A stretch of DNA of 20,000 nt from Psammoneis japonica (GCA_008632985.1 QPGO01000076.1:354903-374902), one strand, 5' to 3'; counted from the stretch's first letter, positions 2,642-20,000 are shown. The notes: generated by a model from the sequence alone, not told the origin. Numbers and translations are program-made.

Positions 2642-2989
2642 TTCGCTTTATGTTTGTTTTTCCATCATAATTCCCTTGTGGCAACGGAGAAGCATGGAAC
2701 TGGATACACTGCGATGGATCATGCTGAGTTAGAAACTCGATCGCACTTGCCGACCGACAGACGAATTATTGCGTTCGTCCACCGTCCATCCGCGTGAGGA
2801 GGTCGCCTCTTTTCGCGCTCTTGCCTTTCTTCGCCACGACAACATTCAATGGCGGCAAGTGCATGTAGGTTTTCCCAACTAGCAGCGCCCGTGATGGACA
2901 ACACAAAACATACAGTGTAGGAGTACAAAGCAAAAAAAAGTGAGCGCTGATGAATCTGATGACCACATTTTCCCCAATTTGTCAAGGAT

Positions 2990-3130
2990 GTGAATAAATA
3001 AATACAAATTTGAATATATTGTTAATTTCACATCAATTAAAGGTTTATCAGGTAATAATAATTATTATTTATAGACGTTCCCGCCATTAACATAAATACT
3101 TTCTAAAAGCTGGATATGTATTATGAAATT
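2990..3130. promoter_or_regulatory. AT-rich island between divergently oriented genes (possible shared promoter region)
   Basis: Abrupt very AT-rich stretch (gaataaataaatacaaatttgaatatatt...ataataattattatttatag) between the GH78 start (2641, minus) and the glycosyltransferase start (3238, plus). Function is inferred from position only. Confidence 0.3.
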
Positions 3131-3237
3131 CAAAAAGCAAACAGTGGAGACAAAAACAACTTCACAAAAACAACAAAAATACCGATCAACCTCACAACAT
3201 ATCTTGATCTCATTCCATTTCAAAAGAGCCAAGCACC

Positions 3238-4619
3238 ATGGATCATTTGGGCTTACGCATGCTTATTGCTGCGGTGTGTTCCTTTCTTGTATTTACAAAC
3301 GCCATGTATTTCCTTGCCGGGACAGCAGCGGTTGAACGTGATGGTGAAGTGTCAAAACAAGATAAAACCGCCGCCAAGAAAACCAAAGGAACAAGAAGCG
3401 AGTCTTCTGACAATGACTTGAAACTCGTTATCTGTGCTCGTGTGCGGTACGTCAAAGAGCTACACGTAAATATAGCTGCGGCGCTAATTTGCTACGCTTT
3501 CAGAGTCCGATGTTCCTCACGTATATTTGTCCCGTTCTCGTCTATTTTATAAACAGAAACGAGGCCCCATATCTTGAAGAGTGGATCGAACATCACCGAA
3601 TGATTGGCTTTGACTCTTTTTTGCTGCTCAATCACGAAAGCTCGGATTCGACACAGTGTGTTTTAGACTCGTATGCAGAGCAAGGCATTGTGACTCGGCT
3701 TCCCGACGACATTGACAAGGACAGCTACCACAGTGGTGGAGAAAGCGCCGTCTTTACCTCATGTGCCAATCATTTGTTGAAACAAAAAGAGGCGAATCGG
3801 ACGTGGATGTTGACTCAAGATCCGGACGAATTTGTTTGGTTTAACGTAAGGTTTGGTGTTCCAACCATCAAGCATGCTGTGTGGTTGATGCTAAAATCCA
3901 ACAGTTTGACAAGGAGCGTGCGTATTCCTAGACTTACGTTTGGCGCTTCTGGTCAAGAGAAGTATGAAAATGAAATGGTGATGAAACGCTTTACTCGTCG
4001 TTTCGAGGTTAAGAATTGCCCTCGTGGTGGCAAGCACCAACAGCATCGACGATTGTTTAACAAAACCGCACCGAATTCGTACTGCGAAACGCACCATACT
4101 CGACATTCCTTTGACAATACCAAGAGTATGACTTTGGTGACAGAAATGGCACTGAAATGCCGTCGTCTTGAGACCAAGCGAAAAAAGACGAAAATGAGCA
4201 GAGCCAAGTGCCACAATCCTCACAGACACAAACTGGCCGATGATGTATCGACCAAAATCGCAACCTTTACCGACGGCAAACAAGAGGCTTCCGATCCAAG
4301 GTATCTTGATGAAAAGGTTGTTGGAGACGATATACAGATATTTCATTATAGGACCAAGAGTCGACAAGAATTTTATGAACGAACCTGTGCATCCGAATTC
4401 GTGGACAAGTTTCGTCGATGCAAGGGCTGCTCACCGGCGAGCTACTTTGACTTGTTCCAAACCTACGCCAACAACTACCAAGATGATCGAATGCTTCACT
4501 TTGCCCAAGCCCTTGAACAACAAATGGCATCTGAACCGAGTATCGTGTCTCATTGTGATACAAGGCCACGAAAAGTGTCTCGTCAATTCATAAAAAAGTG
4601 CTTGAAGCCGCAGAAATAG
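3238..4619 (+). CDS. Type II membrane glycosyltransferase, GT2-like/GT92 (DUF23) family; exons 3238-3446 and 3557-4619, about 423 aa
   Basis: N-terminal hydrophobic anchor (LRMLIAAVCSFLVFTNAMYFLAG). The GT..AG intron 3447-3556 joins CG+A to give ICARVRNEAPYLEEWIEHH..GFD.F, the typical GT2_4/GT92 start. DxD motif DPDEF and the late IFHYRTKSRQEF motif are present. Confidence 0.8.
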
Positions 4620-4790
4620 CGCGCCACGAGTAGTAGCATGATCGTCATTCCCTTTAGTTAGTAAGCTTGCTGTCCTTCGTCTTGGAGTACTATTTCTAAA
4701 GCAAGCAAGATGACACATTTTAGTATAAATTAAACTAAACCACGTTACGCCCTGCCATGTTTATGATACACCCGAAGTGAGAGGGGAGCC

Positions 4791-4960
4791 TCGCTCTACT
4801 CTACTCTCTACCGTACCGTAGCTAGTAGAGTAAAGGGTAGAGAATACCTTTAGCTACTAGCTAGTAGGATGGCCTAATAAGTACTAGCTAGAGTAGCTAG
4901 CTCTACTCTAGCTAGAGTAGAGACTAGCTAGCTAGGCTCTAGAGTAGATAGAGAGTTCTC
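4791..4960. repeat. TAG/CTA-rich low-complexity patch containing a 22-bp perfect palindrome (4901-4922)
   Basis: Built from ctag/agtag/ctact units. CTCTACTCTAGCTAGAGTAGAG is self-complementary, and 13-bp arms at 4884-4896 and 4903-4915 also pair. Confidence 0.8.
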
Positions 4961-5507
4961 GTTAGATGAGCTCATATCCTGAATTCGATTCGGGTTGGTC
5001 GGATAGATCGGGGTGATGTGTGAACGTTCCCATCCAAGCGCCGACAGACTTCAACTTGGCGTAGATTCTACGTGGAACCAATACTGACGCAAGTTGATGG
5101 AGCAGTGACGCGTGGAGCCGCACAAATTCGTAGAGTAGAAAAAACGACAAACGAAAAAAGCAACGAGTGATTGCTGCTGTTGTTCTTGAATCTCCTTTAT
5201 TTCTTCGAGAGAGCGCAACAACAAGTGTGACGTGAGCATCAAACTCTATTGCTGCTCCTTTGACCATTTAGTTTTAGATCTTGAATTAATTTTGTGGGTT
5301 AAATTACCGTGAATCCCCGACGTCTTTCATCTTTCGACGGTATGTACAGAAAACGGGTGTTTTTGTTTGATGGCTCGAGAAAGACGAGTGAAGCAGGAGA
5401 AAAAATCGGAGGCTGCTGAACTGAACGTGTTGAAACTCACTAGTTCTTTGTTCACTCATTTACGTTGTTGATGCTTGCAGTACGAAAGTAAATAATCACA
5501 TTACAAA

Positions 5508-8500
5508 ATGAAGTTTCACTCGGCAGCCCTCGCTACGTTGGTGGCCGCAACAGCTTCGAATGAAGTGGCTAGTTTCGCCATGCTACCGTCTCCTACAAAA
5601 ATGGGCAGTGCGTTTGTTCCACGCACAGTCCTTTCCGCTACAGTTTCGTCTACGCCTCCTCCTACTCGAGGATCCATGAGCATGTTTTCACTCGCGGGTG
5701 GTGGTATCGAAGAGCTTCAGACACTGGTCGACGCATCTCCCAAGGTGACAAAGCAAATTGTTGTGAAATCTCCAAAAATGTGGAAAATTGCAGGCCTGGC
5801 CACGATTCCAGTGTCTGCCGCCTTGGGCTTTGGATTGGTCCCCGCCTCGGGGATTGCAGCCAACACGGTAGGTGCCATGGTATCGGGTATTGCGGGCGCC
5901 GTGGGCAAGTCGAAAATGGATGAAATGGCAGAGACGGCTGCGAAACCGGCACTTGCGCAAGTTTTGATTGACAATGGTGTCGATGAGCCATCTGTTACAC
6001 ACGAGGCTGTCCTACAAGTCCAACAAGACTATGGAGTCTTGGAGGAAGACTTTACGGCCTTGTGCACAGACATTTACGCAAAATACCTATTGGGCATGGT
6101 GAAACACAATATGGAACCTAGCACACGGGAACTCAAGGAACTGGATAAGCTCAAGCAGTGTCTTGGCTTGGAGAATCTTGCCGTCGGTGAGGCCCATGCC
6201 GCTGCTGCGGCTGAATGGTACAGAACCACCACTCTTGTAACTCCCGAGGAAGAGTTGGACGACCCAGAGCATCCTGATCGTGTTGCCATGGACAAGATGC
6301 TGTTCCTCACGGAAGGAGTTTTGCGACAGGGAGGCGAGACACAAGAAGCGTTTACGTATGAAATGACTAGAGTGGCCAAGGCAATGAATCTTTCTCTGTT
6401 GACTGCAATGGATCATGTTTCGGACGTGACTGAACCGTTTTACATGAAGGCCCTCAAGTCTGTTCGGGCAAAGCTGGACAGCGACAAGGTTTCGCCAGAA
6501 ATGCTACAGCGTGCCCGCAACACCTTGGGCTTGTCGGAAAGTACAGCAAAAGACCTGCACATTAGTGCTCTCAACGACGATGTCAGAGAACTTTTAGGAA
6601 AAGTCGACAAGGATGGAAACGAGGTCAAGACCGAGGATATGGATGACTTGAAATTCTCACAAGATGCGATTGAGCGCGTAAGTTTGGTGCCTTGCATGTT
6701 CTTCGTTTCATACGTTGTGTATTGATATGTCCTTATTCTTTCGCCGTTTGGACTACTCTTTCTCTTACAGCTTGCAAGACTCTCCCAAGTTTTCGGATTG
6801 TCTGAAGCTGACGTTGAGTACGAAGTCACGGTTGAAGCGACGCCTCTATTCCAACAGACTGCTCTGGCTGCCATGAAGGACGTCCTGGCCGGAAGCAAGA
6901 CCCCCGATGAAGCCTGGACTCTATTGGAAAAACGCCGCGAGGAACTCTTGTTGATGGAGAGCAGCTCAAAGGATTTGTTGAGCTCCATGGTAATGCAGGC
7001 TCTTGGTGGTCCTCTCGAGGAAACCAACAAGTTTGCCAAGGTCAACAACGAGGCCGCGACCTATGAACACTTGTTGGAAGCGCTCGAGGCAAAGGAAGCT
7101 CTTATTGCTGTCTTGTCGAAAAGTGGCTTTGACGAGTTTGAAAAGTTTGACGAGACCTTTTGTGATCCCCGGAACAAAAATTCTGCTTGTGGATTCCTGG
7201 AAGACACGGAACGTCTCAAAATGTATAAGATCTTTTTGATCAGGACCGTACGTAAGAGCGAGGATGGTAAGCTCACCAAGGAAATGTACGATAAGGTCAT
7301 GGAGGTGAAGGGCTTGCTGGGAATTACCGATGCCGAAGCTGAGAATGAAGCCAGAACCTCCTTTGGACCTGAATTGCAAAAGGCGATGAAGACGGCCATG
7401 GCTGAGATTCTAGATGATTACACTCCAGAGCTTGCCAAAAACCTCAAGAAGAACATTGAGGAAGTAATGGACAGCTACAAGCTATCGACCCAGTTTTTGG
7501 AAGAAATTGGTAGTGGTTTGTACGCAAAGGCTGTTGCTATTGTTAGCGAGAAGGTACGTGCACAAGATTTCCTGGAGAGCACATACATTTTTTCTGAGTT
7601 GTCGTTGGGTTTTGCTCACATGCGCTCATGTTCGAATATATAGACCCCGGCTGGGGTTCCAACGGAAGAGCAGAACGCTGCTCTTGATGCCTTGCGATCG
7701 TTGTTTCAGTTGGAGAAGGAGGACACCTACGCCGCTCACATTAATTCCTTCGCCCCGGTATACAAAAAGAGCGTTTTGGAATCCATGGGCAGCACGGGCG
7801 TGATTCTCCCTGAGTTCAGAAAGCCGTTGGAAGAGCTCCGTGACAGACTTGGTGTTTCAGAAGAATCGACAAAGAGTATTTTCTTGGATGCAGTCCGAGA
7901 AAAGATGGTGCCAATGGTTGAATGGATTGCAAGTGAGCTGGAGCGAACTATGCTTACGCAACAACAACTCTCACATCGACGCAAGAAGGATATGGGCGAA
8001 GATCTCTTCCAAACTGGCAAGGGCGCAACGGTAAGGATGTTGAAGCGTTCACTTGCAGAGATTTTACGACTGTTAGATATACCCATTAACGTTCGTCGCC
8101 CTTTATTCTTTCTTCTTCTTGACAGGGGGTTCTTGGTCTTGGCGCGGAGGCAAACATTATGAGTGATATTATGAATCTTGTTGACTTCTACTTGGAGAAT
8201 GATATTTGCGAGCAAAAGGAGGTTGGAACAAAGACTTTCGAAAAGAGAATCCCTGCCGAGGAGGAGGACGGCGAGGACGAAATTGTCGAGGAAGAAGTGC
8301 CCGTGTTTGAAACGACTTATCCTGTGACGGCTCTCGGCGAAGATTGCATTGACAATGAGATTGCCGAATTGCTTTATCGTCAGTTTGTAGTAGGAGGCTT
8401 CACAACGCAGGGTCCACAGGGAGAGCGATACGAGGGTGCCAAGGCCACCTTTGGTGGAATCTTGGGATTGACGAGCGAAAAGATGGAAGAGATTGGCAGC

Positions 8501-9190
8501 AACATTGGAAGCACGGTTTACGACAACTTTGTAACCAACGCCATGAAGACCAAGGGTGAAATGGACCAACAGGACTTGATGTTCTTGGCCAATATCCAGT
8601 CCAAACTCGGTCTCTCGTCAGAGCAGGGCGAGAAAATGTTGATGGCTTCTCAACGAAAGGTTCTGAGCGAAGAAGTCGATGCGCTCATGGACGAGCCTAC
8701 CCCACAAGGCGTCAAGGCCTTCCGTGAAAAGTGCAATTCCATTGGCATGAGTCTTTCGGAGGACGTTGGTATTTCCAAGACGCGCTTGTCCCGCATGTTC
8801 GAAGCCGAAGTCATTCCTCCACTCAAGTCGGGTGAGGTTTCTACCGAGAATGGCGGTGAGTTGGTGCGAGAAGTCCAAGAGAGTCTTGGACTAGAGCAAG
8901 AAGAAACAGAGCGATTGTTTGAAGGCATGTTGATGAAACTCTCCAGCACGGCGTATGACTTGATCAAGGGTGAATTGATGCGTGGCCGTCAAGACACAGC
9001 GGTTGAACCAATCAAAGAATTGGTCCGCTATGCCGCCTTTGTGGAGGGCGATCTTGACTTGGACGTGCCGGAAGCACTTGCGAACCAAATTTACAACGTA
9101 TACGATGCACTGGACTTTAGTGACCAAGACAGCGAAACCGTAGAAGCAAACAAGGAGTTGCTCAAAACCACGCTGGGACTGTCATCATGA
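5508..9190 (+). CDS. TIC110: Tic110-like plastid inner-envelope protein-import component; exons 5508-6677, 6771-7553, 7644-8030, 8126-9190, about 1134 aa
   Basis: Three phase-0 GT-AG introns (93, 90, 95 bp) join the four ORFs in frame. The bipartite presequence has a signal peptide ending VAS-FAM (ASAFAP-like) and a Ser/Thr-rich transit peptide. Two N-proximal hydrophobic helices are followed by a long acidic helical region with repeated 'L...LGL' units, matching Tic110 architecture. Confidence 0.75.
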
Positions 9191-9818
9191 AACTAAGGGG
9201 GAGAACAGTACTTTATTTTGTAGAGAGATTAGCAAGAGTTTTAATAGCTTATATCTGTGATTTATATAGTTTACTAGGCCTGTACACTGCAGTTTTAGGG
9301 CTATTCTTGCCCGTCCGCGCCCATGTGAAACCTTACCATTTTTACCAATGATGTGGTTTAGTAAGAGCAAAAGATTGACTCGGACGACTGAAACTGCGAC
9401 ATGCGCGACCGCCGATTGATAATGTACGGCAAACTACGTAGATTTCTACGGTGGACGATCAAGTCTGAGCTTTTCGTTCTCATTTCTCATTCTGCAAACG
9501 TCTTATTGTTTCTTGTTGTTGGTTGTTACCTTCGTTGAGCATCCCCATAAGCGCAACGATACACTTATTCTATCGCCATTGATAACATAAGCCTTTTTGG
9601 GTGATACGCGGGGTCTGCTTTTTGTTTACTTTTGTGAATGCGAAAATTACCGAAAGCTTGGGAATACCGGTACAGCTATCACGGACAAGAACTCACGTAA
9701 AAGTCTGAGTTAAAGAAGATCGGATCAAACACCTCGGTTTCTTACGTGCAGAGAGAGCGCTTTATTGAACGATTCTGTCTTTATCTGATATAGAGACAGA
9801 GACGCGGAGAGTACTAAA

Positions 9819-10268
9819 ATGAGTTTTTCCAATCATCCTCTGCAACCACCCGCGAAAAGACCTCGAAGCACGCACTCTTTTCATCCCAACAAGAACAACA
9901 CGTCCAAGCGCCCTCGAGATTCCGCTGCCGTCGAAGACGACCCGAGCCACTCATTCAAGAGAATGCGTATCGAAGAATATGCTTCTGTTACAGCAGTACG
10001 AGATGATGAACACAACATGATGATTGACGAAAACGAAGAGCAGCACCACCGACAACAAGTTCCGGGACAAGACACGAGCTCGGATCATAGCAAGCCTGCA
10101 TCAACAAAGGTAGAAGAACCCAATAAAACGCCCGTAAAGGATTACTCCCAAGTCAATCACGTGTTGGGTAGTTTGCACCAAGAACGAATGCGACGACAAG
10201 AGCGAGGAGATGCGAAAACAAAGAAGCGTCACGTCAAGAAGCTGCCCAGTAATTCTCAATTGTATTGA
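9819..10268 (+). CDS. Small hypothetical, probably nuclear, low-complexity protein (149 aa)
   Basis: Single ATG-TGA ORF with NLS-like clusters (PAKRPR, KRPR, FKRMRI, KTKKRHVKK) and a helical motif DYSQVNHVLGSLHQERMRR. Confidence 0.6.
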   Translation: MSFSNHPLQPPAKRPRSTHSFHPNKNNTSKRPRDSAAVEDDPSHSFKRMRIEEYASVTAVRDDEHNMMIDENEEQHHRQQVPGQDTSSDHSKPASTKVEEPNKTPVKDYSQVNHVLGSLHQERMRRQERGDAKTKKRHVKKLPSNSQLY

Positions 10269-10801
10269 ACGCCATTACGGAAGAACGCGCAAGCACGCCG
10301 CTTTGAATACGGTAGCTATAGTCTAGAGACATCTTCAAACTGTACGTAGCGACTACCTGATAGGCCTAGAGTCAGATATGTAGTTTCAGATCTGCCAGAA
10401 AAAGGTTTTGCGAAAGGATATGCCAGCTGTTGCGGATGAACTTTCCGGAGGATACTGATCACAGCACGCTCTCTAGTTGCGGTGACTCTTGAGAGACTTG
10501 CATTTAGGCCGGCTTTTATTTACCAAGAAGCACGTTTGAGCGCTCGAATGATGTCTCTCTAGTCAGCACGCATAAGTAGCCCGGTGTTGAGTGACATGGT
10601 CGTGCGCAACTTCGAATGCCAGGGCCAGCGAAATGTTATAAGGATACAGCTTGAGAACGCAAGAAGAAATGATCTTTGCTTTTATGTATTGTGTTTCTGT
10701 GTATAACATGACTAGCATTGTTCTTGCGCAGTGTTTATTCATTTTCTCATTCTCCCTTTCACCATGCAGTGATGGCCTTTGCAATCACACATGGCAATCT
10801 C

Positions 10802-11985
10802 TCAAAAGTCCTCAGTGACTGTAATGCAGCGAGTGTTCACAGCATCCTTTAAGTAGAAGAGGAAGTCGTCACACTCGTTCTCTGCAACATTCTCAGTCCC
10901 ATCATTGGAGCACAGCGATAAATCCAAGGTGTTGATGTCGTCGTACAGAAAAGTGCCCGCTGCGCCCCCCTCAAACGCCATGTTCTGCTCAAACACACTC
11001 TCCGCAATAGTCAATCGAGGCATTTGCCCTATCGTAGTCGCCAAATACCCACCGCCGAAACTCGCAGTGTTCTCTTCAAAGGATGTTTTGTATATGGAAA
11101 TACGCTGTCCCGCCGTGAGAGATGTCGGTGAGGTAAGGGTTGTCAGGAGACCTCCTCCGCCAGTGCCAGAAGCGTTGTTACCAAAAAACTCACTAGACGT
11201 AATGACAACATCCAAGGCATCCTCCACATACACACCTCCACCTCCTGGAGCATCGCCTTCGGCAAACCTGCTCTTGTCTACCAAAACACCGCCGGTTGTC
11301 CGAATAAACAAGTTTCCACCACTTAATTGGTGTTGGCCTCTTTCAAATCTACATTCTAAAATACGATGCGTACCGCTGGAGATGATTTCGACATTTCCTC
11401 CGCCTCGTCCTTCCCCAGTGCTACCTCCTCGAATGTCCATCTTGGCCATTGTAAAGTCTTGACCCGTTACGACAAGATTCCGATCCGAAGACGTTGTGCT
11501 GCTCTCTATGATGCAATTCTCCGATTCGCAGCACAAGTAAATGCCAGACTGAGTAACACGGACGGCGAAAGGAGTAGTGATTGTGTTTGATCCGCAGAGA
11601 GAAACAACCGAATTTGGGCCTGCTCTATCCAGCTCCGTCTGAAGGCTCGCGAAGTTCGAGACACAAGCTCCCGTTGTTGGCGTGCAGGCCGGGACAGGAG
11701 TTGGAGCGGCGGAGGTCCACAATTTGGGACTGATACACTCATCATTCCAACATTCTCTAAGAGTCTTTGCCAAAAGACATCGTTTTCGTCATGGTTGATA
11801 TCCCTCTCGTCATCCTGTTCGAAAGTGTTACGGAGCATGGAAGAAACAGCTTTCTTTCCACTGTTCCGCCTTGAAGGGATGTTGTTTTGTCGCATGTCAC
11901 CATCACTGAGCGCCAAGATCATCCCCAGGAGAAGCCTTACCGGTAAGCAAAGAGCAAACCCCGTCATTGTAGCGGAATGTTGCAT
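10802..11985 (-). CDS. Secreted right-handed beta-helix (pectin-lyase-like/POMP-type GG..FxxN repeat) protein; one frameshift near 11715-11725
   Basis: Signal peptide and pro-region (FWQRLLENVGMMS) lie in ORF 11506-12027. The frame then switches to ORF 10802-11773: SAAPTPVP linker, Cys-rich cap, and repeats GGGNV, GGNLF, GGGGVY, FFGNNA..GGGGL, FEENTASFGGG, FEQNMAFEGGA. Start is ATG 11985 or 11967. Confidence 0.65.
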
Positions 11986-12304
11986 GTGATGTTGCGATCT
12001 GGATTGTTCGCAGAAAAATGTGAGCAAGCGATACCTTTTCAGTTGAAATTCAAAATATCGTTGTTAAGTACACATTTTATATGTACCGTATATTAGCAAT
12101 TTCTATTTCAATTTAATAAAGAATTAATAATTATATTAACGGTTGATAATCATACAGTCATGACCATTGATCCTCGCACCACTTTAGAGCGAGGATGGTT
12201 GCAGTAAACGACGAGGGATGGAGGCGGGGGCATCCCTCCTTCTTCCTTCTCAGTTGGTAAGCTCATGCACTTGGAAACCACATGCAGTGAGAAAGTGGTG
12301 CATA

Positions 12305-13051
12305 CGTGTGAGTTCATGTTGGGAAATCCTCTCTCAGGTTTGTGGGGTGAGAAAAAAGTGGCGCAGAGCAGGAGACAGCAGCAAGAGCACACACACCACC
12401 ACCACCACAACAGGAGCACACTTCCAAAGTGTTGTGTGTGTGGGCAGTTGTGTCATCCAAGAAGTGCATCACAACCAACAAAATCTTTTTGGATGGTGGT
12501 GTGCACCACACCTTGCAGTGCTGCACAAAATGCCACCAAAAATTCTTGCCTTGTTGTTTGAAGTGCTCATCATCATTCCTTCATCTGACTCAGCCCACTC
12601 TCTGTGGTCAAAATCCTTTGACAACTTGAGGCCCTGCCCTTTTGGCTTGGTCAGTCTTGCAAGGGACAATTGTGCTGGTGGCCTCACAGAGTCACATGGA
12701 GCAAAAGATCATGGGGGGAGGGGGGGGCGGGCAGGCTGCTCCTGGTTGTGGGAAGCGTTGGTCGTGGGGGGGAAGGAGGGCTCATCAACGGCCACCACTG
12801 CTGCCGTGTGTGCTGCGGCATCCTGCAAAAAACACTTTCCTTCCAGTTTGTGATGCACTCTGGTCCCCCCCCCAACCCACTGACAGGGTGAATCCTTTGA
12901 CGACATCGTGGGTGACTTGCTCCTCATGTGCCACAGAGCTTCTGTGTGTGTGTGTGTTGGAACCTTCCAGCAGTGCAGCAAAAGGCAGCATCTGCAGTGG
13001 CCAAAAATCCCCCCCCCCCCCTCTTTTCCCTCTTCTCTTTCTTCTTGTCTT
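12305..13051. other. TpA-free, CpG-poor, CA/TG-rich non-coding flank immediately upstream of the 5' LTR
   Basis: No TA dinucleotide found from 12305 to 13389. Only about 9 CpG in this 750 bp. Runs of cacacac/gtgtgtg and G/C homopolymers. No credible ORF. Confidence 0.8.
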
Positions 13052-13249
13052 TGTCAGCCTGTCTGTCTGCATGTCACGTGATGGACAGACTGGATGTGGA
13101 TGATGGCTGGACCATTCAGACAGACGAGAGCAGATCTCTCTGAGATCTGCTTCTCACTTTCTCATCTGCTGGTGCTCGTGTCATCACAGTCCTGGCACTT
13201 CAGGGAGTCTTTCATGCCTCTGTCACCATTGACCTTCGGCATTCTGTCA
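13052..13249 (+). repeat. 5' LTR (about 198 bp, TG...CA)
   Basis: 13052-13097 matches 19955-20000 at 41 of 46 nt. The right end is inferred from ...CTGTCA followed by a PBS-like sequence, because the full 3' LTR is outside the window. Confidence 0.75.
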
Positions 13250-13261
13250 GGTCATGGCCGC
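13250..13261 (+). promoter_or_regulatory. Putative primer-binding site (degenerate)
   Basis: GGTCATGGCC directly after the inferred LTR end resembles the GGTTATGGGCCC half-tRNAi-Met PBS type of copia, allowing for a TA->CA change. The match is imperfect. Confidence 0.35.
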
Positions 13262-13427
13262 GTGCTGTGCCACAGACCTGTGCGCCAAGCTTTCTGTTTC
13301 GATTCATTTCTTTTGTGAGCCGATCGAGCGAGCCTCATCGTCTGATCTGACAACTTTTTGTCTCGCTTTCCCGGCATTTTTCATGACCGTAGAAACACAC
13401 CAGATTTCTGCGCGTGCATGACCAAAA

Positions 13428-15387
13428 ATGGCTCCACCAACTAAAACCATGGTGTCTTCCGACCCCACAAAGCCCACTCTTCCGTCCATTGCAGAGATCT
13501 GCTGTGAGTTCGAGGCACACACAACGATGCCACATCTACATGGCTGCCTGGGTGCGATTTGTGCGGACTCCACAACTGATCTCGACCCGTTCTTTGACGA
13601 TCCAGAGCGCGTGCAACCCAAGAAAGATTTTGCGGACATGCTTCGTGATCACTTCATCCACGAACGGAAAAGTTGCTCTTCAGAGCTCCCTCGTCCCTTG
13701 CAACCATGGATTCCGTCACTGTGTTGATGCATCCAATTGCATCATCCTCAACGATGGCACCCTTTTCATCATGAGCTTGACTCCTGACCAGAAAATGTTG
13801 TTCAGGGAACCTCCTGCATGTCACGACGACTCTCCCCCTGGGATGCGAGCATGGTGCCAAAATTTCCAACGTCATGCCTTTGATTCAGGATGCCACATGC
13901 ATCCATTGTGGTGTTTTGCTGAGGACCACGGTGGTGTGAAAGGTTTCGAGATCGGAAACGGCAAGGATGATGACTTGCCTCAATGCATGTGCGTCCACTG
14001 CAAGGAAGCTGAGAGCTCTCTCCACAAAATCTCATCCAAGTCGGGTGTGTTCCCCAAGAACAGCAAATGTCATCGGATTGTTGCATCATGCTGCGGCAAT
14101 GGACACAAGGCTCTCAAGCAGATTGTCTGTGAGAATCATCCTGCTTTCGACCACGATGCTGCTGGACTGGTTGACTCCCATCCTGTCCAAGGCAATCGAT
14201 CATTGACAGACTGCCACATGATCTTCAATGATTTCCCACAGCTGCATGCCTGCATTTTTGATGCGGACTCTACGTTGAACGATCCACGGGAGATGACTGT
14301 CTTTGTCAAGAACACCAAGCACTCCAAGTTCTCATCTCGTGCCACCAGAGATGAGACGCGTTCCAGCCCTAGGTGGGAGCTCGTAGCACTGACGTGTGAC
14401 AACAATAATTTTTATCATCCGTCGTATGTTTCGTACGTAGATTTCTACGTGTGATATTTAAAAAAAAATTGTCCAGACTCGCTGTTTTGCGAAGCCCCAG
14501 ACGTTTTATATAACAAATTTATAGAAACAATAATGCGCCAGTTACATTCTTCAATGTCTGAAGAATGTAACTGGCTAAGTAAAAAATGATGTACTTCAAT
14601 CATGTGCGAGTTTGTGCGTTCGCAAAATTGCCTCATTTTCTGTTGGCGATCATTGACATTTTAATTACCGTATAATTTTACTACGGAGCTCGCACGTAGA
14701 AGTCTGCGGGCCCAATGTCACACGGATTCCCACCTACGTCTGGAACGCGTCATGAACGGAAGTCTCCAGCTGTGCAGAAGAAGTGCACAGATGCACAGAT
14801 TGTCGAGACTCTCTCTGATTTCCTCTGCCAACCGGACAGTCCATCCTTTGCCACTCGTGCGACGCAATCCAATCCCCGCCGCACATGGAATCGAGCAGCT
14901 GAGGATGCGCGACGCACGGCTGTCAATGTCAGTGCTCTCCAGATCCCTGAGACATCTCTTCCTGAACCAGTCGATGACTCCACCACTGAAGACACTGGTG
15001 CGGAATCTCCACCTCTGGACACCTTTGATGCTTTTTGTGACGAATTGCATGAACTCGAGATCCCTTCTACGGACGAAGATCGACTTCTGCACCATGCATG
15101 TTTGGCTTCAGTTTGCAAACTGAAAGTTGCTCCGAATGAAGCCTCCAAGAAACCATGTCTTGTCTGCTCCGGAGAGCATTTGTTTGATGACTGTCCGGCC
15201 CTGAAGAACAACCCACACATCAAGGGATTTCACATCCATTTTTGTCAATTCTTAAAGAGGGAAGCAGCTGTGCGTGCTTCTGAGTTCCAAGGATCCAAGG
15301 TCTGCTCCCACCTCATCATGAAAACCTGAAAATCCGCCCAGATCTGGTGCTCCGCCCTCGGATTTTCAATCGGGCCGTCGCAGCTAG
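13428..15387 (+). pseudogene. gag: gag of the copia element, interrupted by a MITE and frameshifts
   Basis: ORF pieces 13428-, 13414- and 14715- are collinear. Removing the MITE plus one TSD restores an in-frame ..SRATRDERKSPAVQKK... Zinc knuckle CLVCSGEHLFDDC at about 15156-15194. A plausible end is ..SDFQSGRRS-TAG at 15387. Confidence 0.75.
14355..14751. mobile_element. Non-autonomous TIR DNA transposon (MITE), 397 bp, 24-bp TIRs, 4-bp ATGA target-site duplication
   Basis: Left TIR GACGCGTTCCAGCCCTAGGTGGGA (14355-14378) matches the reverse complement of 14728-14751 (GACGCGTTCCAGACGTAGGTGGGA) at 22 of 24. ATGA sits at 14351-14354 and 14752-14755. The interior is AT-rich and non-coding, and excision restores the gag frame. 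Confidence 0.92.
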
Positions 15388-15447
15388 TTTCGGATCTCCG
15401 ACACTGCCCGTTTTTCTCCTCACCGAGACAAGACTGATGTCAGCGGG

Positions 15448-18400
15448 ATGACCTTGAAAGAGGGACCAACCGTCTCGTCATCTGCCACTGAAGTGCCTCT
15501 TTCTTCACAGATTGACATGGATGCCACCCCTTCCACTGCCACGAAGGTGTCATTTGATGCCAGCAAGTTACCAGATGATGACCCTGCTCCCATGGAAGAC
15601 ACCGTCGATGCTGCTTGTGCTCCGGATCCTTTGGAACAGGGGAGGGAAGACCCAGAAACACCGGATTTTGAGGAACACATTGACCTCACCTGCAATGACA
15701 TGGCTGTTGAAGATGGTTTTGCTGCCATCAATTCTGTTCGTGTCACTCCGATCGATCCACACCAAGCGAGTCACTCTCCTGAGCCGGAACTGTTGCGCTC
15801 AACTTGTTCTGTCAATGGGGCAAATTTTGCTCCGAATGAGTGTTGTGCTCAGTTGGATGCTGGTGCTGATGTTGCATGTGCAGCGACCGTGACCTTCTCC
15901 ACCGACACCAAGAATTCACTCCGTCCCATCCCTGTCCCCTTGCTGTCAATCCGGCCCTTGGCCATCAAGCTGTCCCAGTTGGGTTCGGATGTCTTCGCAT
16001 CCCTGCAGAGAACTCTGATGGATGTGTTGAGGTTCGTGCCTGCTGCCACCCACAGATCCAATCTACGTTGGTTGATGAGCGACTCCTCCTTCGTCAAAAT
16101 GGCCCTCGTCGTGCAGACCACAATGTTGATTGTGTCCTCAAGTTCCATGATCTCGGCACCTGCAAGTTTGTTGCACGACACCGATTGCACAAGAATCAGG
16201 ACATCATCATTCATGGGAAATTGATCAATGGCAAATGCTTTGCTCACCCTCTCATCCTCCCAGAATCTAATGATGAATTGGGTGCATCTGTTGAGCGCCT
16301 CAAGACCAGTGACCCTTCCTTTGCTGATGAGTGTGAAGCAGTCTCTGTGCACATGATTGAAACATGTGACACCTGCCAACATGACGCTCTTCGTGCTGAA
16401 TGCAAGTTGATCCCCCGAGTGCATCAAGATGTTCCTTTTGAAGAGCATGCAGAGAAGAATGTCCCTGTCCAATCTCTCAAGGCTGACACGGAATGCCTTT
16501 CATGGCATCAGCGACTTGGTCATCCGAGTGATCACTGCCTTTGTCATGCCCATGAACACGGTGTCCCCAAGTTTGCCCACGGAACTTCTCCTCTCGACAC
16601 TTGTCCCACATGCACACAAGCAAAGCAGACAAAGGAACCTGCTGGTCCGAACACTGCTCTTGCTGCCACCCAACCCTGCCAAGGTCTTGCGGTTGATTTT
16701 TCTTTCTCTGGCCTGCGGTCCAAGAACTCGGAGCGCACCAAAGACTGTGTTGGATTGAATGGCGAGACTTGTTGGATCACCATCTACGATCATAAAACGA
16801 AGCATCTCCACCGTCCAAGGCAACCCCTCTGAATTGGCTTCGCCACTTTCTGGAAGAGCACTCACCAAAATGTCCAGACAAATGTGTGTTTGTGGATCAA
16901 GGAGGTGAATTGCATCAAAACCCAGAGGTTCGGTGACTTTTCGAGGATGACTTTCACCGCGCAATTTGTCCTGCGGGAAAAGATGCTTCAAACCAGAGGT
17001 GGCCCAGTGGAACGCAGTCATTTGACTGTTGCTGATGCCATCCGGGCGATGCTCATTGGTGCCAATTTGCCCACAAAATTCTGGCCCTGTGCTTTTCATC
17101 ATTTCACTCGAATCAACAACGCTGTGCCATCCCGCGGACAACCTGCTGCTCCGATTGCTCTTGCTGAGCTGGTCGAAAGGATGATTTCAAGAACTTTCGC
17201 ATGTTTGGTTGCCAAGTGTGGGTGCGTGCGTCGAATCACCGCCCAGCAAAATTTCGGTCTGTCTCTTGCAAGGGTGTTTTCTTGGGCCATCTTCCAGACA
17301 CCACCAAGAACATCCTTTGGTGTGACACCGAGACGTCGCGTGTCAAGCTTGCCAAGCACATTCATCATGATGAGGGCATGAATGATCTACCCCACGACTC
17401 TCTTCCCCTGAATGTGGTTCACTTGGAGCATGCTCAAGATGGCAAGGCTTCACCTGCCAAGACTGAAGAATCTACGATGGACGAGCTCCACTTTCATGGG
17501 AATCCTTTTGCCAAGACCATTGCGCATACGATGAAGGGGCCGTTTGCTGATCCGACATTTGGAATTTCATTGACTGCGGATGATCTCCATCAGCAAGTGT
17601 TTGTCTCTGATGTCAAGCATGGTTCTCCTGCTGCGCGTCTTTTCTGTTCTTTGAAGGCAACCTGCAACAAGATCAAGGGTGCGTGTGTCGCATTGATTGA
17701 TGATCACCCTGTCTTTGTGGCAGAGGAGGCCATCAAACGTTTTCGACAAGTCTGTGATTCTGGCAAGACTCACTTTGAAATCGAGTTTGCGCCGGAACGT
17801 CAACTGGACTCCCAGGCTCTACAACGTGCCCTGATGGAACACAATGTCTGTGCACCGACTCCTGACCCTGATGACGAACATGTCCCGGAAATTGCCAATG
17901 CTGACATGCATGCTGTTGCTGCCATCCGTCACCCTGATGTTGATTTTTCCGATGTGGACGATGATGACATCCCTCCGTTGATCCATGTCGACTGCGACAA
18001 TGGTGTGGTCAACATCTGCACCATTTCATCTCATGCCATTGCTCCGGAGGAACAAGCGTCAGGTGCTTTCACTCGCCATTGTCTCAAGAAGCTGGGCACC
18101 TGGCCCGAATGGCATGTGGGTGAATTCAAACAACTTGACCAATTCCATGAGTTGGGGATGTTTGGTGCACCGATTGAATGTCCAAAGGATGCCACAGTCC
18201 TTTGTCCACATTGGCAACATGATCTCAAGCATGATGGCACGCGACGATCTTGACAATGCTGCGATGGATCTCCTTGTGCTGCGTCAATCCTCCATTGTCT
18301 TCACTCAACCCACTCCTCTTGTGTGGAACAACCTGTCCAACGCATGTTTTTTGCCCTTGCTGCGACTGTGAGCTACCCTGTGTTTGGTGGTGATGCTCAT

Positions 18401-19780
18401 GATGCCTGTGCACACTCTCCACGACCGTCACACCCCGTCTGTGTTGCTGTTGACGAAGCATGCGCGACTTGGCACAAGGCTCGGTTTGGCATTGATTTGG
18501 ATGGGACCATGGTGCTTCCGATGCAACATGCACTTCAGGGACACCCAGAAGCCAGCGTGCTCTGGGAGATGCACATCAACGGCATTTTGTCGATGTGAAT
18601 CCACTTTTTCGCAACACCGCTCATGACAAATGCATCTGTTCTGCTGCTTTTGAGGGACACAAGATCTTGCTCCTCCATCAGGTTGATGACTTCTCCCTTG
18701 CGTGTCCTGAAGAGTCCCTTGCGATCAAGACACACGACAAGATTGGCAAAGCTCTTGAATTGGAATCGGAAACCTCCCTGCCTTTCAAGTGTCTTGGCGT
18801 GATTGAAGAGTTCAATGGTGTGGATGTTCATCAACATGATGACTCTGTTGGCATTGCTGTTCACAGCCATGTTGATCGGGTTTGCACCTCGCATGGATGG
18901 TCGACACCGACGGAAGAGGAACTCGACGATGACTGCAAGGCTGCGCCAATCCCGGTTGACTCTTTCGTGAACTGTGCACTGCTGTTGGTCCAGCTGAAGG
19001 AACCCCGGAACATGCAGAGTTACAACAAGCTGCTGGTTTTGGGTGCCGCACTCCACTTGGTGAATTGTTGTGTGCGCATGTTGTCTGTCGATTGGATGTT
19101 GGACATGCCATCACTGCTCTCTCCAAGTTCTCTGCCTGTCCTGCTTTGGTTCACTGTGATGCACTCAAGGGAGCATGCAAGTGCCTTCGACGCACCAAGC
19201 ATTGGGAACTGAACTGCAAGAAGCCCACCCGAGACTCAAGACTGCCCGCCTGCCCCTTCGAACGTCTCACTCCGGACCCGACCCTACCATCGTTCCCTTT
19301 CCCGGAACATGATCATCAACTTGTTGCCTTTTTGGATGCTGCATGTGGCAATGACCTCCGTAACCGTCGCTCTGTGACTGGCTGTGCTTGCATGTTAGCC
19401 GGTGCTGCACATCCTTTTGATGCAAGACCCAATCGGCGACTGCTGCGAGTTCTGCGGAAGCTGAATTCTGCGCTGCTGGCACCACTGCCAAGCATGTCCT
19501 TTACCTTCGTCACATCCCACATGAACCAGGCTTCTCTCAGACGGAGCCAACCCCATTGCACATTGACAACGAATCGGCAATCAAGATCGTCAATCATTTG
19601 ATCCCGACCGAGCGATCCCGTCACGTTGAGGTCCAGTTTTTTGCGATCCAAAAATGGAAGGAAGTGGGCAAATTGTCACAAGACATGTCCCTGGCATTGT
19701 CAACCCTGCAATGACCTTGCCAAGGCCCTTGGCTGGGTGCCACATGCCCGCCACGCTCGACGCATGATGGGACTGCTGTT
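15448..19780 (+). pseudogene. pol: pol (protease, GAG-pre-integrase, integrase, RT, RNase H), inactivated by transitions, stops and frameshifts
   Basis: Protease AQLDAGA (~15850); WHQRLGHPS..CPTC (~16500-16615); integrase VER..IRAML..KFWPCAF; FGCQVWV..GVFLGH; RT region SCVEQP, ALQGHPEA..WE, HQVDDF, FNGVDV, RLDVGHAI..LSKF; RNase H FLDAACGND..RRSVTG and NDLAKALGW. Boundaries are approximate. Confidence 0.9.
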
Positions 19781-19945
19781 GATGTTTTTTCCGCGGTGGC
19801 CTCCCTGCTGCACATTGCCCCCTTGTTTGATGGCGCATTGGGCATGGACACTTGTCGTGTCCTGTGTCTGGTCTCTCTGTTTCCTTACATCATCCCTGTT
19901 CTTTGGTTTGATCTGCCCATTCTCTATGTTGAGACATTGCAGATC

Positions 19946-19954
19946 AGGGGAGGG
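19946..19954 (+). promoter_or_regulatory. Polypurine tract
   Basis: AGGGGAGGG immediately precedes the TG of the 3' LTR. Confidence 0.85.
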
Positions 19955-20000
19955 TGTCAGCCTGTCTGTCTGCATGTCGTACGATGGACAGACTGGATGC
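19955..20000 (+). repeat. 3' LTR (first 46 bp; truncated by the window)
   Basis: TGTCAGCCTGTCTGTCTGCATGTC... is a direct repeat of 13052 onward. Confidence 0.9.

What the first reader, a model, noticed from the sequence alone, without database searches (positions are those of the whole stretch)
13052..20000. Candidate undescribed genome-defence system: strand-symmetric TpA->TpG/CpA hypermutation of a retrotransposon ('reverse RIP')
Seen: about 25 TA in about 6550 bp of element excluding the MITE (about 0.4%, versus about 3% in a Tic110 exon sample), and the 350-aa pol ORF 17201-18253 has no Tyr. Against well-known copia motifs, changes sit at ancestral TA and go both ways on one strand. TA->TG: FWPY->FWPC (17088), DAAY->DAAC (19344), VTGY->VTGC, KYL->KCL, DLTK->DLAK, protease DTG->DAG (15859). 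TA->CA: FLGY->FLGH (17288), LLWH->LSWH (16500), VGYA->VGHA. This is A->G 3' of T on both strands. CpG decay is also evident (Arg->His/Cys; CGA->TGA at 18251). Established: fungal RIP and 5mC deamination are C->T and do not remove TpA; ADAR/APOBEC editing of retroelements is strand-biased. Inference: a chromosomal, repeat-targeted adenine mutator, for example a TadA/ADAT-like DNA adenine deaminase, or Pol-eta-type error-prone repair (TA hotspot, WA->WG) coupled to methylated DNA. Ancestral residues are inferred from family consensus. I know of no description of this in diatoms but cannot check the literature.
Basis: partly seen in the sequence, partly recalled or inferred. Interest (0 to 1): 0.95.

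Follow-up and report, generated by a model that had tools for sequence, protein, structure and literature searches.

The report
TpA-to-TpG/CpA hypermutated diatom copia retrotransposon
A dead copia-type retrotransposon in a pennate diatom has had almost every TA dinucleotide turned into TG or CA, the same odd mutation pattern reported in 2026 for viral DNA integrated in a distantly related alga, which suggests a wider algal way of wrecking foreign DNA.

Summary
The element minus a later insert has 25 TA in 6552 bp (O/E 0.07; shuffles give 383±15), with TG and CA in excess.

At 33 codons where at least 2 of 3 intact homologues have Tyr, the window has 13 TGY, 14 CAY, 1 CGC, 5 TTT and no TAY. 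The TGY and CAY codons are interspersed along the element.

The host is a pennate diatom.

A related copia family from metagenomes lies, in at least one contig, beside diatom genes. In 52 non-duplicate copies it shows the process directly:
- The hypermutation is copy-specific. In L080, TpA sites changed at 51/97 and 17/93, against 3–5% at other A/T sites.
- 74 of 100 TA sites show both outcomes among copies.
- In one element, 9 of 11 sites that differ between its two LTRs are TA/TG/CA. Much of the mutation therefore followed LTR formation.

The system is not undescribed. A 2026 bioRxiv preprint measured exactly this TpA-only A→G/T→C hypermutation in Bigelowiella natans. I found no diatom report.

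The "repeat-induced" reading is not supported. The enzyme is unknown.

Verdict: a new member of a just-described kind, extended to diatoms and to LTR retrotransposons.

The parts
12305..13051 (.). TA-free, CpG-poor stretch directly upstream of the 5' LTR. It is not part of the element and is single-copy at 80% likeness in the run.
   Evidence: 0 TA in 747 bp, CG O/E 0.19, TG 1.68, CA 1.79. One 1021-nt contig covers 12005-13021 with 0 differences, and summed depth is 47-60 against about 3000 in the element. No Pfam family for ORF 12218-12853.
13052..20000 (+). Degenerate Ty1/copia-type LTR retrotransposon that runs off the window end. TpA is nearly exhausted.
   Evidence: The LTR start is repeated at 13052 and 19955. 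tblastn to intact polyproteins P0001, P0003 and P0004 covers 15891-19772 in three frames, with at least 3 frame changes and in-frame stops. Pfam finds gag_pre-integrs and SH3_retrovirus. 25 TA in 6552 bp.
13052..13334 (+). 5' LTR. The start is firm. The end is approximate, taken from a step in contig depth.
   Evidence: A 45-nt direct repeat links 13052-13096 and 19955-19999 at 91%. Depth in bin 13068-13334 is 9468, against about 3500 further in. No PBS was found.
14355..14751 (.). Later insertion of a short TIR element (MITE-like) with normal TA content.
   Evidence: 24-nt inverted repeats at 14355-14378 and 14728-14751, 92% complementary. ATGA lies on both sides. 29 TA in 397 bp, O/E 0.86. 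Summed contig depth is about 1e5.
15891..17210 (+). Region of the pol frame holding the gag-pre-integrase and integrase parts.
   Evidence: tblastn HSPs to P0001, P0003 and P0004 in frame 3. PF13976 in ORF 15876-16832.
17201..18253 (+). 350-aa ORF without Tyr, covering the integrase C-terminus to the start of RT. It ends at a TGA where homologues have Arg.
   Evidence: 697 library proteins match at E<=0.001, the best at 49% identity.
18607..19772 (+). RT and RNase H region, split over frames 1 and 3.
   Evidence: tblastn HSPs 18607-18960 (frame 1) and 18972-19772 (frame 3) to P0001 and P0004.
16500..16502 (+). TCA codon that is TTA in most other copies of the same genome: a private TA->CA change of this copy.
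   Evidence: At 16501 the window has C and other contigs read T, depth 1955 of 2103 in 13 contigs.
19955..20000 (+). First 45 nt of the 3' LTR. It keeps CGTACG where the 5' LTR has CACGTG.
   Evidence: The four differences read as TA->CG plus two CpG decays in the 5' LTR (my reading of the two rows). TA at 19980 is one of the 25 survivors.

Best explanation
The window holds a dead Ty1/copia LTR retrotransposon in the nuclear genome of a pennate diatom. The element, together with 747 bp of neighbouring DNA, has undergone near-saturating A:T->G:C transitions confined to the palindromic dinucleotide TpA. A hit on one strand gives TpG and a hit on the other gives CpA. This comes on top of ordinary CpG decay.

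It is the same mutational signature that a 2026 mutation-accumulation study measured in integrated viral DNA of the chlorarachniophyte Bigelowiella natans.

Shown here:
- the signature and its TpA specificity;
- its two-strand, site-by-site (not run-wise) pattern;
- in a related copia family, of which at least one contig carries diatom host genes, its independence between copies and between the two LTRs of one element. This means it acts on integrated chromosomal DNA.

Inferred:
- A host activity directed at silenced or foreign chromatin domains, not at repeats as such, converts adenine 3' of T to hypoxanthine, which pairs with C. The most likely agent is a TadA/ADAT-type deaminase working on DNA, with a preference for R-T-A-Y.
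- The result destroys Tyr codons and conserved motifs. It removes TAA and TAG stops while leaving the frame dead through frameshifts and TGA.
- The role as a genome defence is inference.
For: 1. TpA loss with TG/CA gain: 25 TA in 6552 bp, O/E 0.07, TG 1.73, CA 1.44.

2. Ancestral Tyr. At 33 codons where at least 2 of 3 homologues have Tyr, the window has 13 TGY, 14 CAY, 1 CGC, 5 TTT and 0 TAY. Over all 94 Tyr-aligned codons it has 30 TGY and 22 CAY, with 29 runs against 26.4 expected.

3. Same genome. The family is multi-copy in run X1: 5389 contig pieces laid, and summed depth about 3000 against 40-80 in the flank. Diverged snippets of other copies are also TA-poor, with 1 TA in about 195 nt of tables 5c and 7 (my count). 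At 16501 the other copies keep the TA.

4. Related family, 52 non-duplicate copies of a 2.5-kb segment:
- A->G at TpA and T->C at TpA are 48/83 and 24/80 in L027, 51/97 and 17/93 in L080, and 37/100 and 27/95 in L059. Other A/T sites in the same copies change at 3-8%. Most copies show 0-8% at TpA.
- By the -1 base in the three most mutated copies: T 208/559, A 51/823, C 74/1055, G 35/983.
- 74 of 100 TA sites show both TG and CA among copies. The runs tests give z from -0.67 to 1.25 in 8 copies.

5. L059 LTR pair (201 nt): 11 differing sites, of which 9 are TA/TG/CA (5 TA-CA, 2 TA-TG, 2 TG-CA), 1 is CpG and 1 is other.

6. The depletion reaches beyond element ends: window 12305-13051, and the 1101-bp flank of L027 with TA O/E 0.13, which matches none of the other 79 loci.

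7. Hosts are diatoms:
- The Tic110 ORF has its best named hits in Nitzschia, Mayamaea, Seminavis, Pseudo-nitzschia and Phaeodactylum at 51-59%.
- The carrier gene beside the L036 element is 74% identical to Seminavis.

8. The same signature was measured experimentally in B. natans: 230 of 231 mutations in two viral regions are A->G or T->C, and all of those fall on TpA.

9. Extended motif: RTAY sites mutated 149/194 against YTAR 38/94, Fisher p=3e-9. Window survivors are enriched in CTA, 14/25 against 108/494 in the flank, p=3e-4.
Against: 1. For the window's own family I could not see per-copy spectra. Only 40 of 1607 variable places were listed. Among those 40 near-private differences, only 2 are TA->CA, 12 are CpG decay and 17 are A:T->G:C outside TpA. 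The bulk of the window's TA loss may therefore be inherited from a progenitor copy and not have arisen in place.

2. Only 45 nt of the 3' LTR are in the window, so the LTR test rests on one TA site here.

3. Run X1 may be the sample the window was assembled from, so it is not independent of the assembly.

4. The abundant TIR insert inside the element is unmutated. This fits a process that has stopped, or a process before integration, as well as it fits a recent insertion.

5. Two hypermutated copies show strand bias: L080 50:19 (p=0.0002) and L027 47:23 (p=0.006).

6. No enzyme, DNA modification or chromatin mark was examined. No genome is held for this window.

7. The TA-depleted flanks could be old debris of other elements and not evidence of spreading.

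8. The host of the metagenome family is shown to be a diatom for one contig only (L036).
Confidence: 0.8

Rival explanations
1. Timing rival for this window: the hypermutation hit one progenitor copy, and that already TA-free dead sequence was then multiplied (mobilised in trans, or by segmental duplication). The window copy would have inherited the pattern and was not mutated where it now lies.
For: Among the 40 best-supported places where nearly all other contigs differ from the window, only 2 are TA->CA. Diverged snippets of other copies are equally TA-poor.
Against: The 40 rows shown are the near-unanimous ones. Independent TG-or-CA choices would appear at about 50% share, among the 1567 rows not shown. 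The 5' and 3' LTR starts differ at a TA site. In the related family the hits are demonstrably independent per copy and per LTR. A pol without Tyr and with frameshifts cannot copy itself.
Confidence: 0.25
2. Editing before integration: an RNA or cDNA adenosine deaminase (ADAR- or ADAT-like) edits the element's genomic RNA and/or minus-strand cDNA during retrotransposition, as APOBEC3 does for C in retroviruses. Each new insertion would then arrive already mutated.
For: Hypermutation is copy-specific and graded. The TIR insert inside the element is untouched. Two copies show strand bias.
Against: Both strands are hit in similar numbers and fully interspersed in the window and in 6 of 8 copies. 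The two LTRs of L059 differ at 9 TpA sites, including 2 sites resolved as TG in one LTR and CA in the other. DNA outside the element is equally depleted in the window and in L027. In B. natans the process was seen in resident chromosomal DNA of DNA viruses.
Confidence: 0.08
3. Same signature, different chemistry: the primary lesion is on thymine 5' of A, not on adenine. For example, oxidation or other modification of T by a TET/JBP-type enzyme could lead to T->C. Alternatively the lesion could be a modified adenine (6mA-type) that miscodes.
For: TpA is palindromic, so A->G after T and T->C before A cannot be told apart from sequence. The idea of TET/JBP-type thymine modification at TpA is recalled, not tested.
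Against: No positive evidence here. The mild preference for pyrimidine at +1 of the A (C 128/332, T 122/368, against A 39/174 and G 66/303) resembles the U-A-C context of tRNA adenosine deaminases (recalled).
Confidence: 0.12
4. Not a targeted mutator. The pattern would come from GC-biased gene conversion among repeats, from Pol-eta-type WA->WG repair errors, or from selection against UpA in RNA.
For: A:T->G:C bias is what gBGC gives. 17 of the 40 listed window-private differences are A:T->G:C outside TpA. TA is generally under-represented in the flank, O/E 0.60.
Against: The specificity is for TpA only: 37% against 3.6-7% for the other -1 bases, and ApA is not raised. Conserved Tyr codons are destroyed, so selection for function is excluded. 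A single-copy stretch is depleted too.
Confidence: 0.03
5. Sequencing or assembly artefact.
For: None found.
Against: Contigs of run X1 reproduce 12005-13021 with 0 differences and cover the element, though that run may be the source. The same signature occurs in unrelated metagenome assemblies: 10 of 80 loci have TA O/E below 0.45.
Confidence: 0.01

Closest known systems
TpA-targeted hypermutation of integrated viral DNA in Bigelowiella natans (Mettrop et al., bioRxiv 2026, doi 10.64898/2026.01.13.699255; abstract, Results and Discussion read; supplements not seen)
   Same: Almost only A->G and T->C. Only at TpA, giving TpG or CpA according to strand. Local to foreign DNA. Long-term footprint of low TpA with high CpA+TpG. 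Not dependent on repetition. An ADAT-type deaminase is proposed in both cases without proof.
   Different: The host is a diatom (stramenopile), not a rhizarian. The target here is an LTR retrotransposon family. Depletion is near saturation (O/E 0.07, against Rho 0.45 for their NCLDV region). Here it is a fossil footprint, not a measured rate.
Repeat-induced point mutation (RIP) of fungi
   Same: Heavy transition mutation that kills transposons in the genome, with a dinucleotide preference, and that can reach neighbouring DNA.
   Different: RIP is C->T, mainly at CpA, and creates TpA. Here TpA is destroyed by A:T->G:C. Dependence on repeats is not supported: the abundant TIR insert is unmutated and a single-copy stretch is mutated.
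ADAR hyperediting and APOBEC3 editing of retroelements (animals)
   Same: Deaminase-type hypermutation of retroelements. ADAR disfavours G and favours U 5' of the edited A (as cited in the preprint).
   Different: Those act on RNA or on single-stranded cDNA and leave a strand-specific pattern fixed at integration. Here both strands are hit and the LTRs of one element diverged afterwards.
CoDi-type Ty1/copia elements of diatoms (Maumus et al. 2009, PMC2806351; searched for six terms only)
   Same: Copia-type LTR retrotransposon of a diatom. Relatives are abundant in marine and mat metagenomes.
   Different: That paper's text holds none of 'TpA', 'dinucleotide', 'RIP' or 'mutated'. Membership of a particular CoDi group was not tested.

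Membership tests
B. natans-type TpA hypermutation of foreign DNA | Changes are almost exclusively A->G / T->C | tested here: met
   At Tyr-aligned codons: 52 TGY/CAY, against 2 TAC kept. In L080, TpA changes are 68 A->G/T->C among 97 sites, with transversions at 1.4% of positions overall.
B. natans-type TpA hypermutation of foreign DNA | Restricted to the TpA dinucleotide | tested here: met
   A->G by -1 base in the three most mutated related copies: T 37%, A 6.2%, C 7.0%, G 3.6%. In the window this is shown only indirectly, by TA O/E 0.07 and Tyr loss.
B. natans-type TpA hypermutation of foreign DNA | Both strands affected (TpG and CpA products) | tested here: met
   30 TGY: 22 CAY in the window. 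74 of 100 TA sites show both products among copies.
B. natans-type TpA hypermutation of foreign DNA | Low TpA together with high CpA+TpG (their cut-offs: Rho TpA <=0.43, Rho CpA+TpG >=1.52) | tested here: met
   Thirteen of the 16 500-bp windows from 12001 to 20000 have TA O/E of at most 0.16 and mean TG/CA O/E of 1.47-1.83. Window 15001-15500 (TA O/E 0.10, TG/CA 1.25) and the two windows that hold the insert (TA O/E 0.33 and 0.55) do not. My O/E is computed in the same spirit but not with their script.
B. natans-type TpA hypermutation of foreign DNA | Acts on resident chromosomal DNA at a measurably raised rate | not testable with these tools
   Indirect evidence only: LTR-pair divergence in L059 and depleted flanks. 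No mutation-accumulation data exist for this diatom.
Fungal RIP | C:G->T:A transitions (CpA->TpA) that raise TpA | tested here: not met
   TpA is removed, not made.
Fungal RIP | Triggered by sequence duplication | tested here: not met
   The TIR insert with the highest contig depth keeps TA O/E 0.86. The stretch 12305-13051, single-copy at 80% likeness, has 0 TA. The insert may simply be young, so this is weak evidence.
ADAR/APOBEC-type editing before integration | Strand-specific changes fixed at integration, with identical LTRs | tested here: not met
   Two-strand interspersed pattern. 9 TpA differences between the LTRs of L059.
Pol-eta WA hotspot mutagenesis | A->G at both ApA and TpA | tested here: not met
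   ApA 51/823 against TpA 208/559 (related family).
Ty1/copia LTR retrotransposon | LTRs, and pol order integrase before RT and RNase H | tested here: met
   LTR start repeated 6903 bp apart. PF13976 and PF25597 matched. HSPs are colinear with 1280-1513-aa polyproteins. PBS, PPT and TSD were not found or lie outside the window.

The most novel reading that the evidence does not exclude
Diatoms and chlorarachniophytes share an old, chromatin-directed mutator that works on double-stranded chromosomal DNA. It hits either strand of the palindrome TpA, best at R-T-A-Y, one site at a time and without strand-coordinated runs, and it permanently erases retrotransposons and integrated viruses. This would be a RIP-like defence of opposite chemistry, run by an enzyme class not yet known in eukaryotes (a DNA adenine deaminase or a thymine modifier). 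That enzyme could now be found by comparing genomes with and without the footprint.
Probability: 0.3. Interest if true: 0.85.

Novelty: new member of a known kind. Interest (0 to 1): 0.68.

Why it matters
TpA-specific hypermutation was reported only in 2026, in one rhizarian alga and for integrated DNA viruses.

Finding the same footprint at saturation in LTR retrotransposons of at least one pennate diatom, and in a related family of another uncultured diatom, suggests a widespread algal genome defence and not a curiosity of one species.

It offers a comparative route to the unknown enzyme: look for which deaminase or TET/JBP paralogues co-occur with the footprint.

It adds mechanistic constraints:
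- both strands are hit;
- there are no runs of same-strand hits;
- RTAY is preferred over YTAR;
- the process does not depend on repeats;
- it acts after integration.

It also warns annotators that long ORFs without TAA or TAG in such regions are artefacts of the mutation, and that TE ages from LTR divergence will be overestimated.

Tried and rejected
- Whole-genome copy collection was not possible, because no genome is held for this window.
- Earlier notes of this scan: nothing on this genome and nothing for the words searched.
- Close copies through protein searches: the best library hit to ORF 17201-18253 is 49% identical and 41-44% in the 90% clusters. Other copies of this genome are therefore not in those collections.
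- Read laying listed only 40 of 1607 variable places.
- Run X2 laid one contig, on the insert only. This says nothing either way.
- PBS search with a tRNA-Met-type 12-mer: 5 matches against 6.3 expected, none at the LTR end.
- Atlas search for the taxon of the L036 carrier gene was uninformative, returning animal and fungal clusters. Named hits replaced it.
- Pfam on the flanking ORFs of L062, L053, L052 and L060 found no families.
- ORF 12218-12853 in the TA-free flank has no Pfam family.
- Adjacency of surviving TAs to CpG is raised in the window (9/25 against 78/494, p=0.02). In the related family it does not protect (43/72 against 321/530 mutated), so I do not claim it.
- Native composition, gBGC, Pol-eta and artefact readings were rejected, as set out under the rival explanations.

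Full report
**What is in the window**

Bases 1-12000 carry ordinary genes: a GT2/GT92-type glycosyltransferase, a Tic110 gene in several exons and a beta-helix protein. Their TA O/E is about 0.6.

An LTR retrotransposon of the Ty1/copia type begins at 13052 and runs off the window end.
- Its first 45 nt recur at 19955, the start of the 3' LTR.
- Pfam finds a gag-pre-integrase domain and a retroviral SH3-like domain.
- Three intact polyproteins of 957-1513 aa from the protein library align colinearly over 15891-19772. The alignment needs three reading frames and passes several in-frame stops. The copy is dead.

A 397-bp element with 24-nt terminal inverted repeats sits inside it at 14355-14751.

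- Without that insert the element has 25 TA in 6552 bp (0.38%, O/E 0.07). 1000 shuffles give 383±15 and never fewer than 331.
- TG O/E is 1.73, CA 1.44 and CG 0.64.
- TAA and TAG have almost vanished from all six frames: 11 and 17 against 324 TGA. In the flank the counts are 217, 227 and 440. This explains the many long overlapping ORFs on both strands.
- The 350-aa ORF 17201-18253 has no Tyr.
It starts at about 12305, and the 747 bp before the LTR have no TA and CG O/E 0.19.

**It is mutation, not native composition**
- Where homologue P0001 has Tyr the window has Cys 15 times, His 15 times and Tyr once, of 39 positions. For P0004 the counts are 20 C and 12 H of 59. For P0003 they are 9 C and 8 H of 23.
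- At the 33 codons where at least two of the three homologues have Tyr, the window reads TGY 13, CAY 14, CGC 1, TTT 5 and TAY 0.
- TGY and CAY are about equally frequent (30:22 over all 94 Tyr-aligned codons, p=0.33). They are interspersed along the element, with 29 runs against 26.4 expected. Both strands were therefore hit, site by site.

**The same genome**

No assembly is held. Two runs of one sample hold the flanking genes, and they may be the source of the window, so they are not independent.

Laying their contigs at 80% likeness gave 5389 pieces on the element. Summed depth was about 3000, against 40-80 in the flank, so the family is multi-copy.
- The stretch 12005-13021 is covered by one contig with no difference and little else, so at this likeness it is single-copy.
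- The insert region has a summed depth of about 1e5.

Only 40 of 1607 variable places were listed, namely those where nearly all other contigs differ from the window. They break down as follows:

| Class | Count |
|---|---|
| CpG decay in the window | 12 |
| Window keeps TA | 1 |
| A:T->G:C outside TpA | 17 |
| Other (3 C:G->T:A outside CpG, 5 transversions) | 8 |

Short diverged snippets of other copies are TA-poor too, with 1 TA in about 195 nt (my count).

The whole family is therefore depleted. I could not tell how much of the window's loss arose in place and how much was inherited. This is the main weakness of the report.

The two LTR starts differ at four adjacent bases (CACGTG against CGTACG). 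These read as one TpA hit on both strands plus two CpG decays in the 5' LTR. That is only one TpA site.

**A related family shows the process directly**

A scan of metagenome contigs with an alignment of the ORF and its homologues returned 80 loci.
- Their TA O/E runs from 0.11 to 0.73, and 10 of 80 are below 0.45.
- Sixty-four of them, from microbial-mat assemblies, belong to one family with 80-93% nucleotide identity. After dropping 12 near-identical duplicates, 52 copies of a 2.5-kb segment were aligned.

Against the majority base, a few copies are hypermutated at TpA only:

| Copy | A->G at TpA | T->C at TpA | Other A/T sites in the same copy |
|---|---|---|---|
| L027 | 48/83 | 24/80 | 7-8% |
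| L080 | 51/97 | 17/93 | 3-5% |
| L059 | 37/100 | 27/95 | 5-6% |

Most copies show 0-8% at TpA.

Further results on this family:
- By the base before the A, pooled over the three copies: T 208/559, A 51/823, C 74/1055, G 35/983.
- 74 of 100 TA sites carry TG in some copies and CA in others. TG and CA are not arranged in runs, with z from -0.67 to 1.25 in eight copies.
- Two copies do show an overall strand bias: L080 50:19 and L027 47:23.
- Flanking bases matter. RTAY sites are mutated in 149/194 cases and YTAR sites in 38/94. The base after the A is preferably a pyrimidine.
- The 25 TAs that survive in the window are enriched in CTA, 14/25 against 108/494 in the flank. This agrees with the slow class.

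**After integration**

Locus L059 holds both LTRs of a partly hypermutated element. Over 201 aligned nt they differ at 11 sites. Nine of these are TA in one LTR against TG or CA in the other, or TG against CA. One is a CpG site and one is a transversion. LTRs are copied from one template at retrotransposition, so these hits came later.

The most mutated copy, L027, lies beside 1101 bp of unrelated DNA with TA O/E 0.13. In L078 the depletion ends at the element's end, with a flank O/E of 0.59.

**Hosts**
- The window's Tic110 exon is most like pennate diatom proteins: Nitzschia inconspicua, Mayamaea, Seminavis, Pseudo-nitzschia and Phaeodactylum at 51-59%. The best unnamed hit is 65%. The window is therefore from a diatom, and it is neither B. 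natans nor a species in that collection.
- In L036 an element of the mat family lies next to a carrier gene 74% identical to that of Seminavis robusta.

**What is known**

Searches for diatom, retrotransposon, hypermutation, TpA and RIP-like terms found no diatom report. The founding paper on diatom copia elements does not contain the terms TpA, dinucleotide, RIP or mutated (term search only).

One search turned up a bioRxiv preprint of 2026 on Bigelowiella natans. I read its abstract, Results and Discussion and searched it for further terms. It reports:
- In mutation-accumulation lines, 231 of 302 nuclear mutations fall in two integrated viral regions.
- 230 of those are A->G or T->C, and all of these lie on TpA.
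- The rate is about 1000-fold above background, and only some lines are affected.
- The genome holds 124 clusters of low-TpA, high-CpA+TpG windows.
- Low-TpA genes are enriched in reverse transcriptase and DDE domains.
- The authors propose an ADAT2-like adenine deaminase.
- The text does not mention diatoms or retrotransposons by name.

**Reading**

The window shows the fossil footprint of the same kind of process, in another algal lineage and on an LTR retrotransposon, carried nearly to completion.

The 'reverse RIP' label fits the outcome but not the trigger. The abundant insert is untouched, while a single-copy neighbour and, in B. natans, a single-copy virus are hit.

Adenine deamination at 5'-TA is the most economical chemistry. 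Sequence alone cannot exclude a thymine-directed lesion.

The defence role, the targeting by chromatin or small RNA, and the enzyme are all inference.

Noticed in passing
window 14355-14751: A short TIR element (24-nt inverted ends, ATGA on both sides) is inserted in the retrotransposon. Its contigs have by far the highest summed depth in run X1 (about 1e5), and its TA and CG content are normal. It is probably a very abundant, recently active MITE family.
   Followed up: partly
window 13052-20000 (25 surviving TA): The TAs that survive are mostly in CTA/TAC contexts (14 CTA, 16 TAC, 10 CTAC of 25). Nine adjoin a CpG. The CTA bias fits the slow YTA class seen in the related family, but the CpG adjacency is not reproduced there.
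   Followed up: partly
window 13310-19886 (40 listed places): Among changes private to this copy, A:T->G:C outside TpA (17) outnumber G:C->A:T outside CpG (3; a fourth C->T is the retained TA at 19886).
   Followed up: no
window 12032-12153: A TA-rich short tandem repeat lies directly before the TA-free domain. Contigs show length variation there (table 5c). The switch from TA-rich to TA-free at about 12305 is abrupt.
   Followed up: no
window 13076-13079 vs 19979-19982: Four adjacent transitions between the two LTR starts (ACGT against GTAC). This looks like a TpA hit on both strands (TA->CG) flanked by two CpG decays. Tyr->Arg (CGC) codons, 2 of 94, suggest such double hits are rare but real.
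   Followed up: partly
L080/L078 and L027: Two hypermutated copies show a 2-3:1 excess of TG over CA on the sense strand (50:19 and 47:23), while six others do not. This may be an effect of transcription or replication direction.
   Followed up: no
L062:2513-3524; L060:3601-4800: L062 carries a 1-kb insertion absent from the other family members. The flank of L060 has a stretch almost free of CpG (O/E 0.06-0.30) with normal TA, so CpG decay and TpA loss are separable.
   Followed up: no
P0007, P0095, P0112, P0109, P0146, P0151, P0153: Several library proteins related to the ORF have little or no Tyr and raised Cys/His. In the alignment they show Y->C/H at conserved sites (for example HWQY -> HWQH/HWQC). 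Hypermutated copies have therefore been called as genes in public data.
   Followed up: partly
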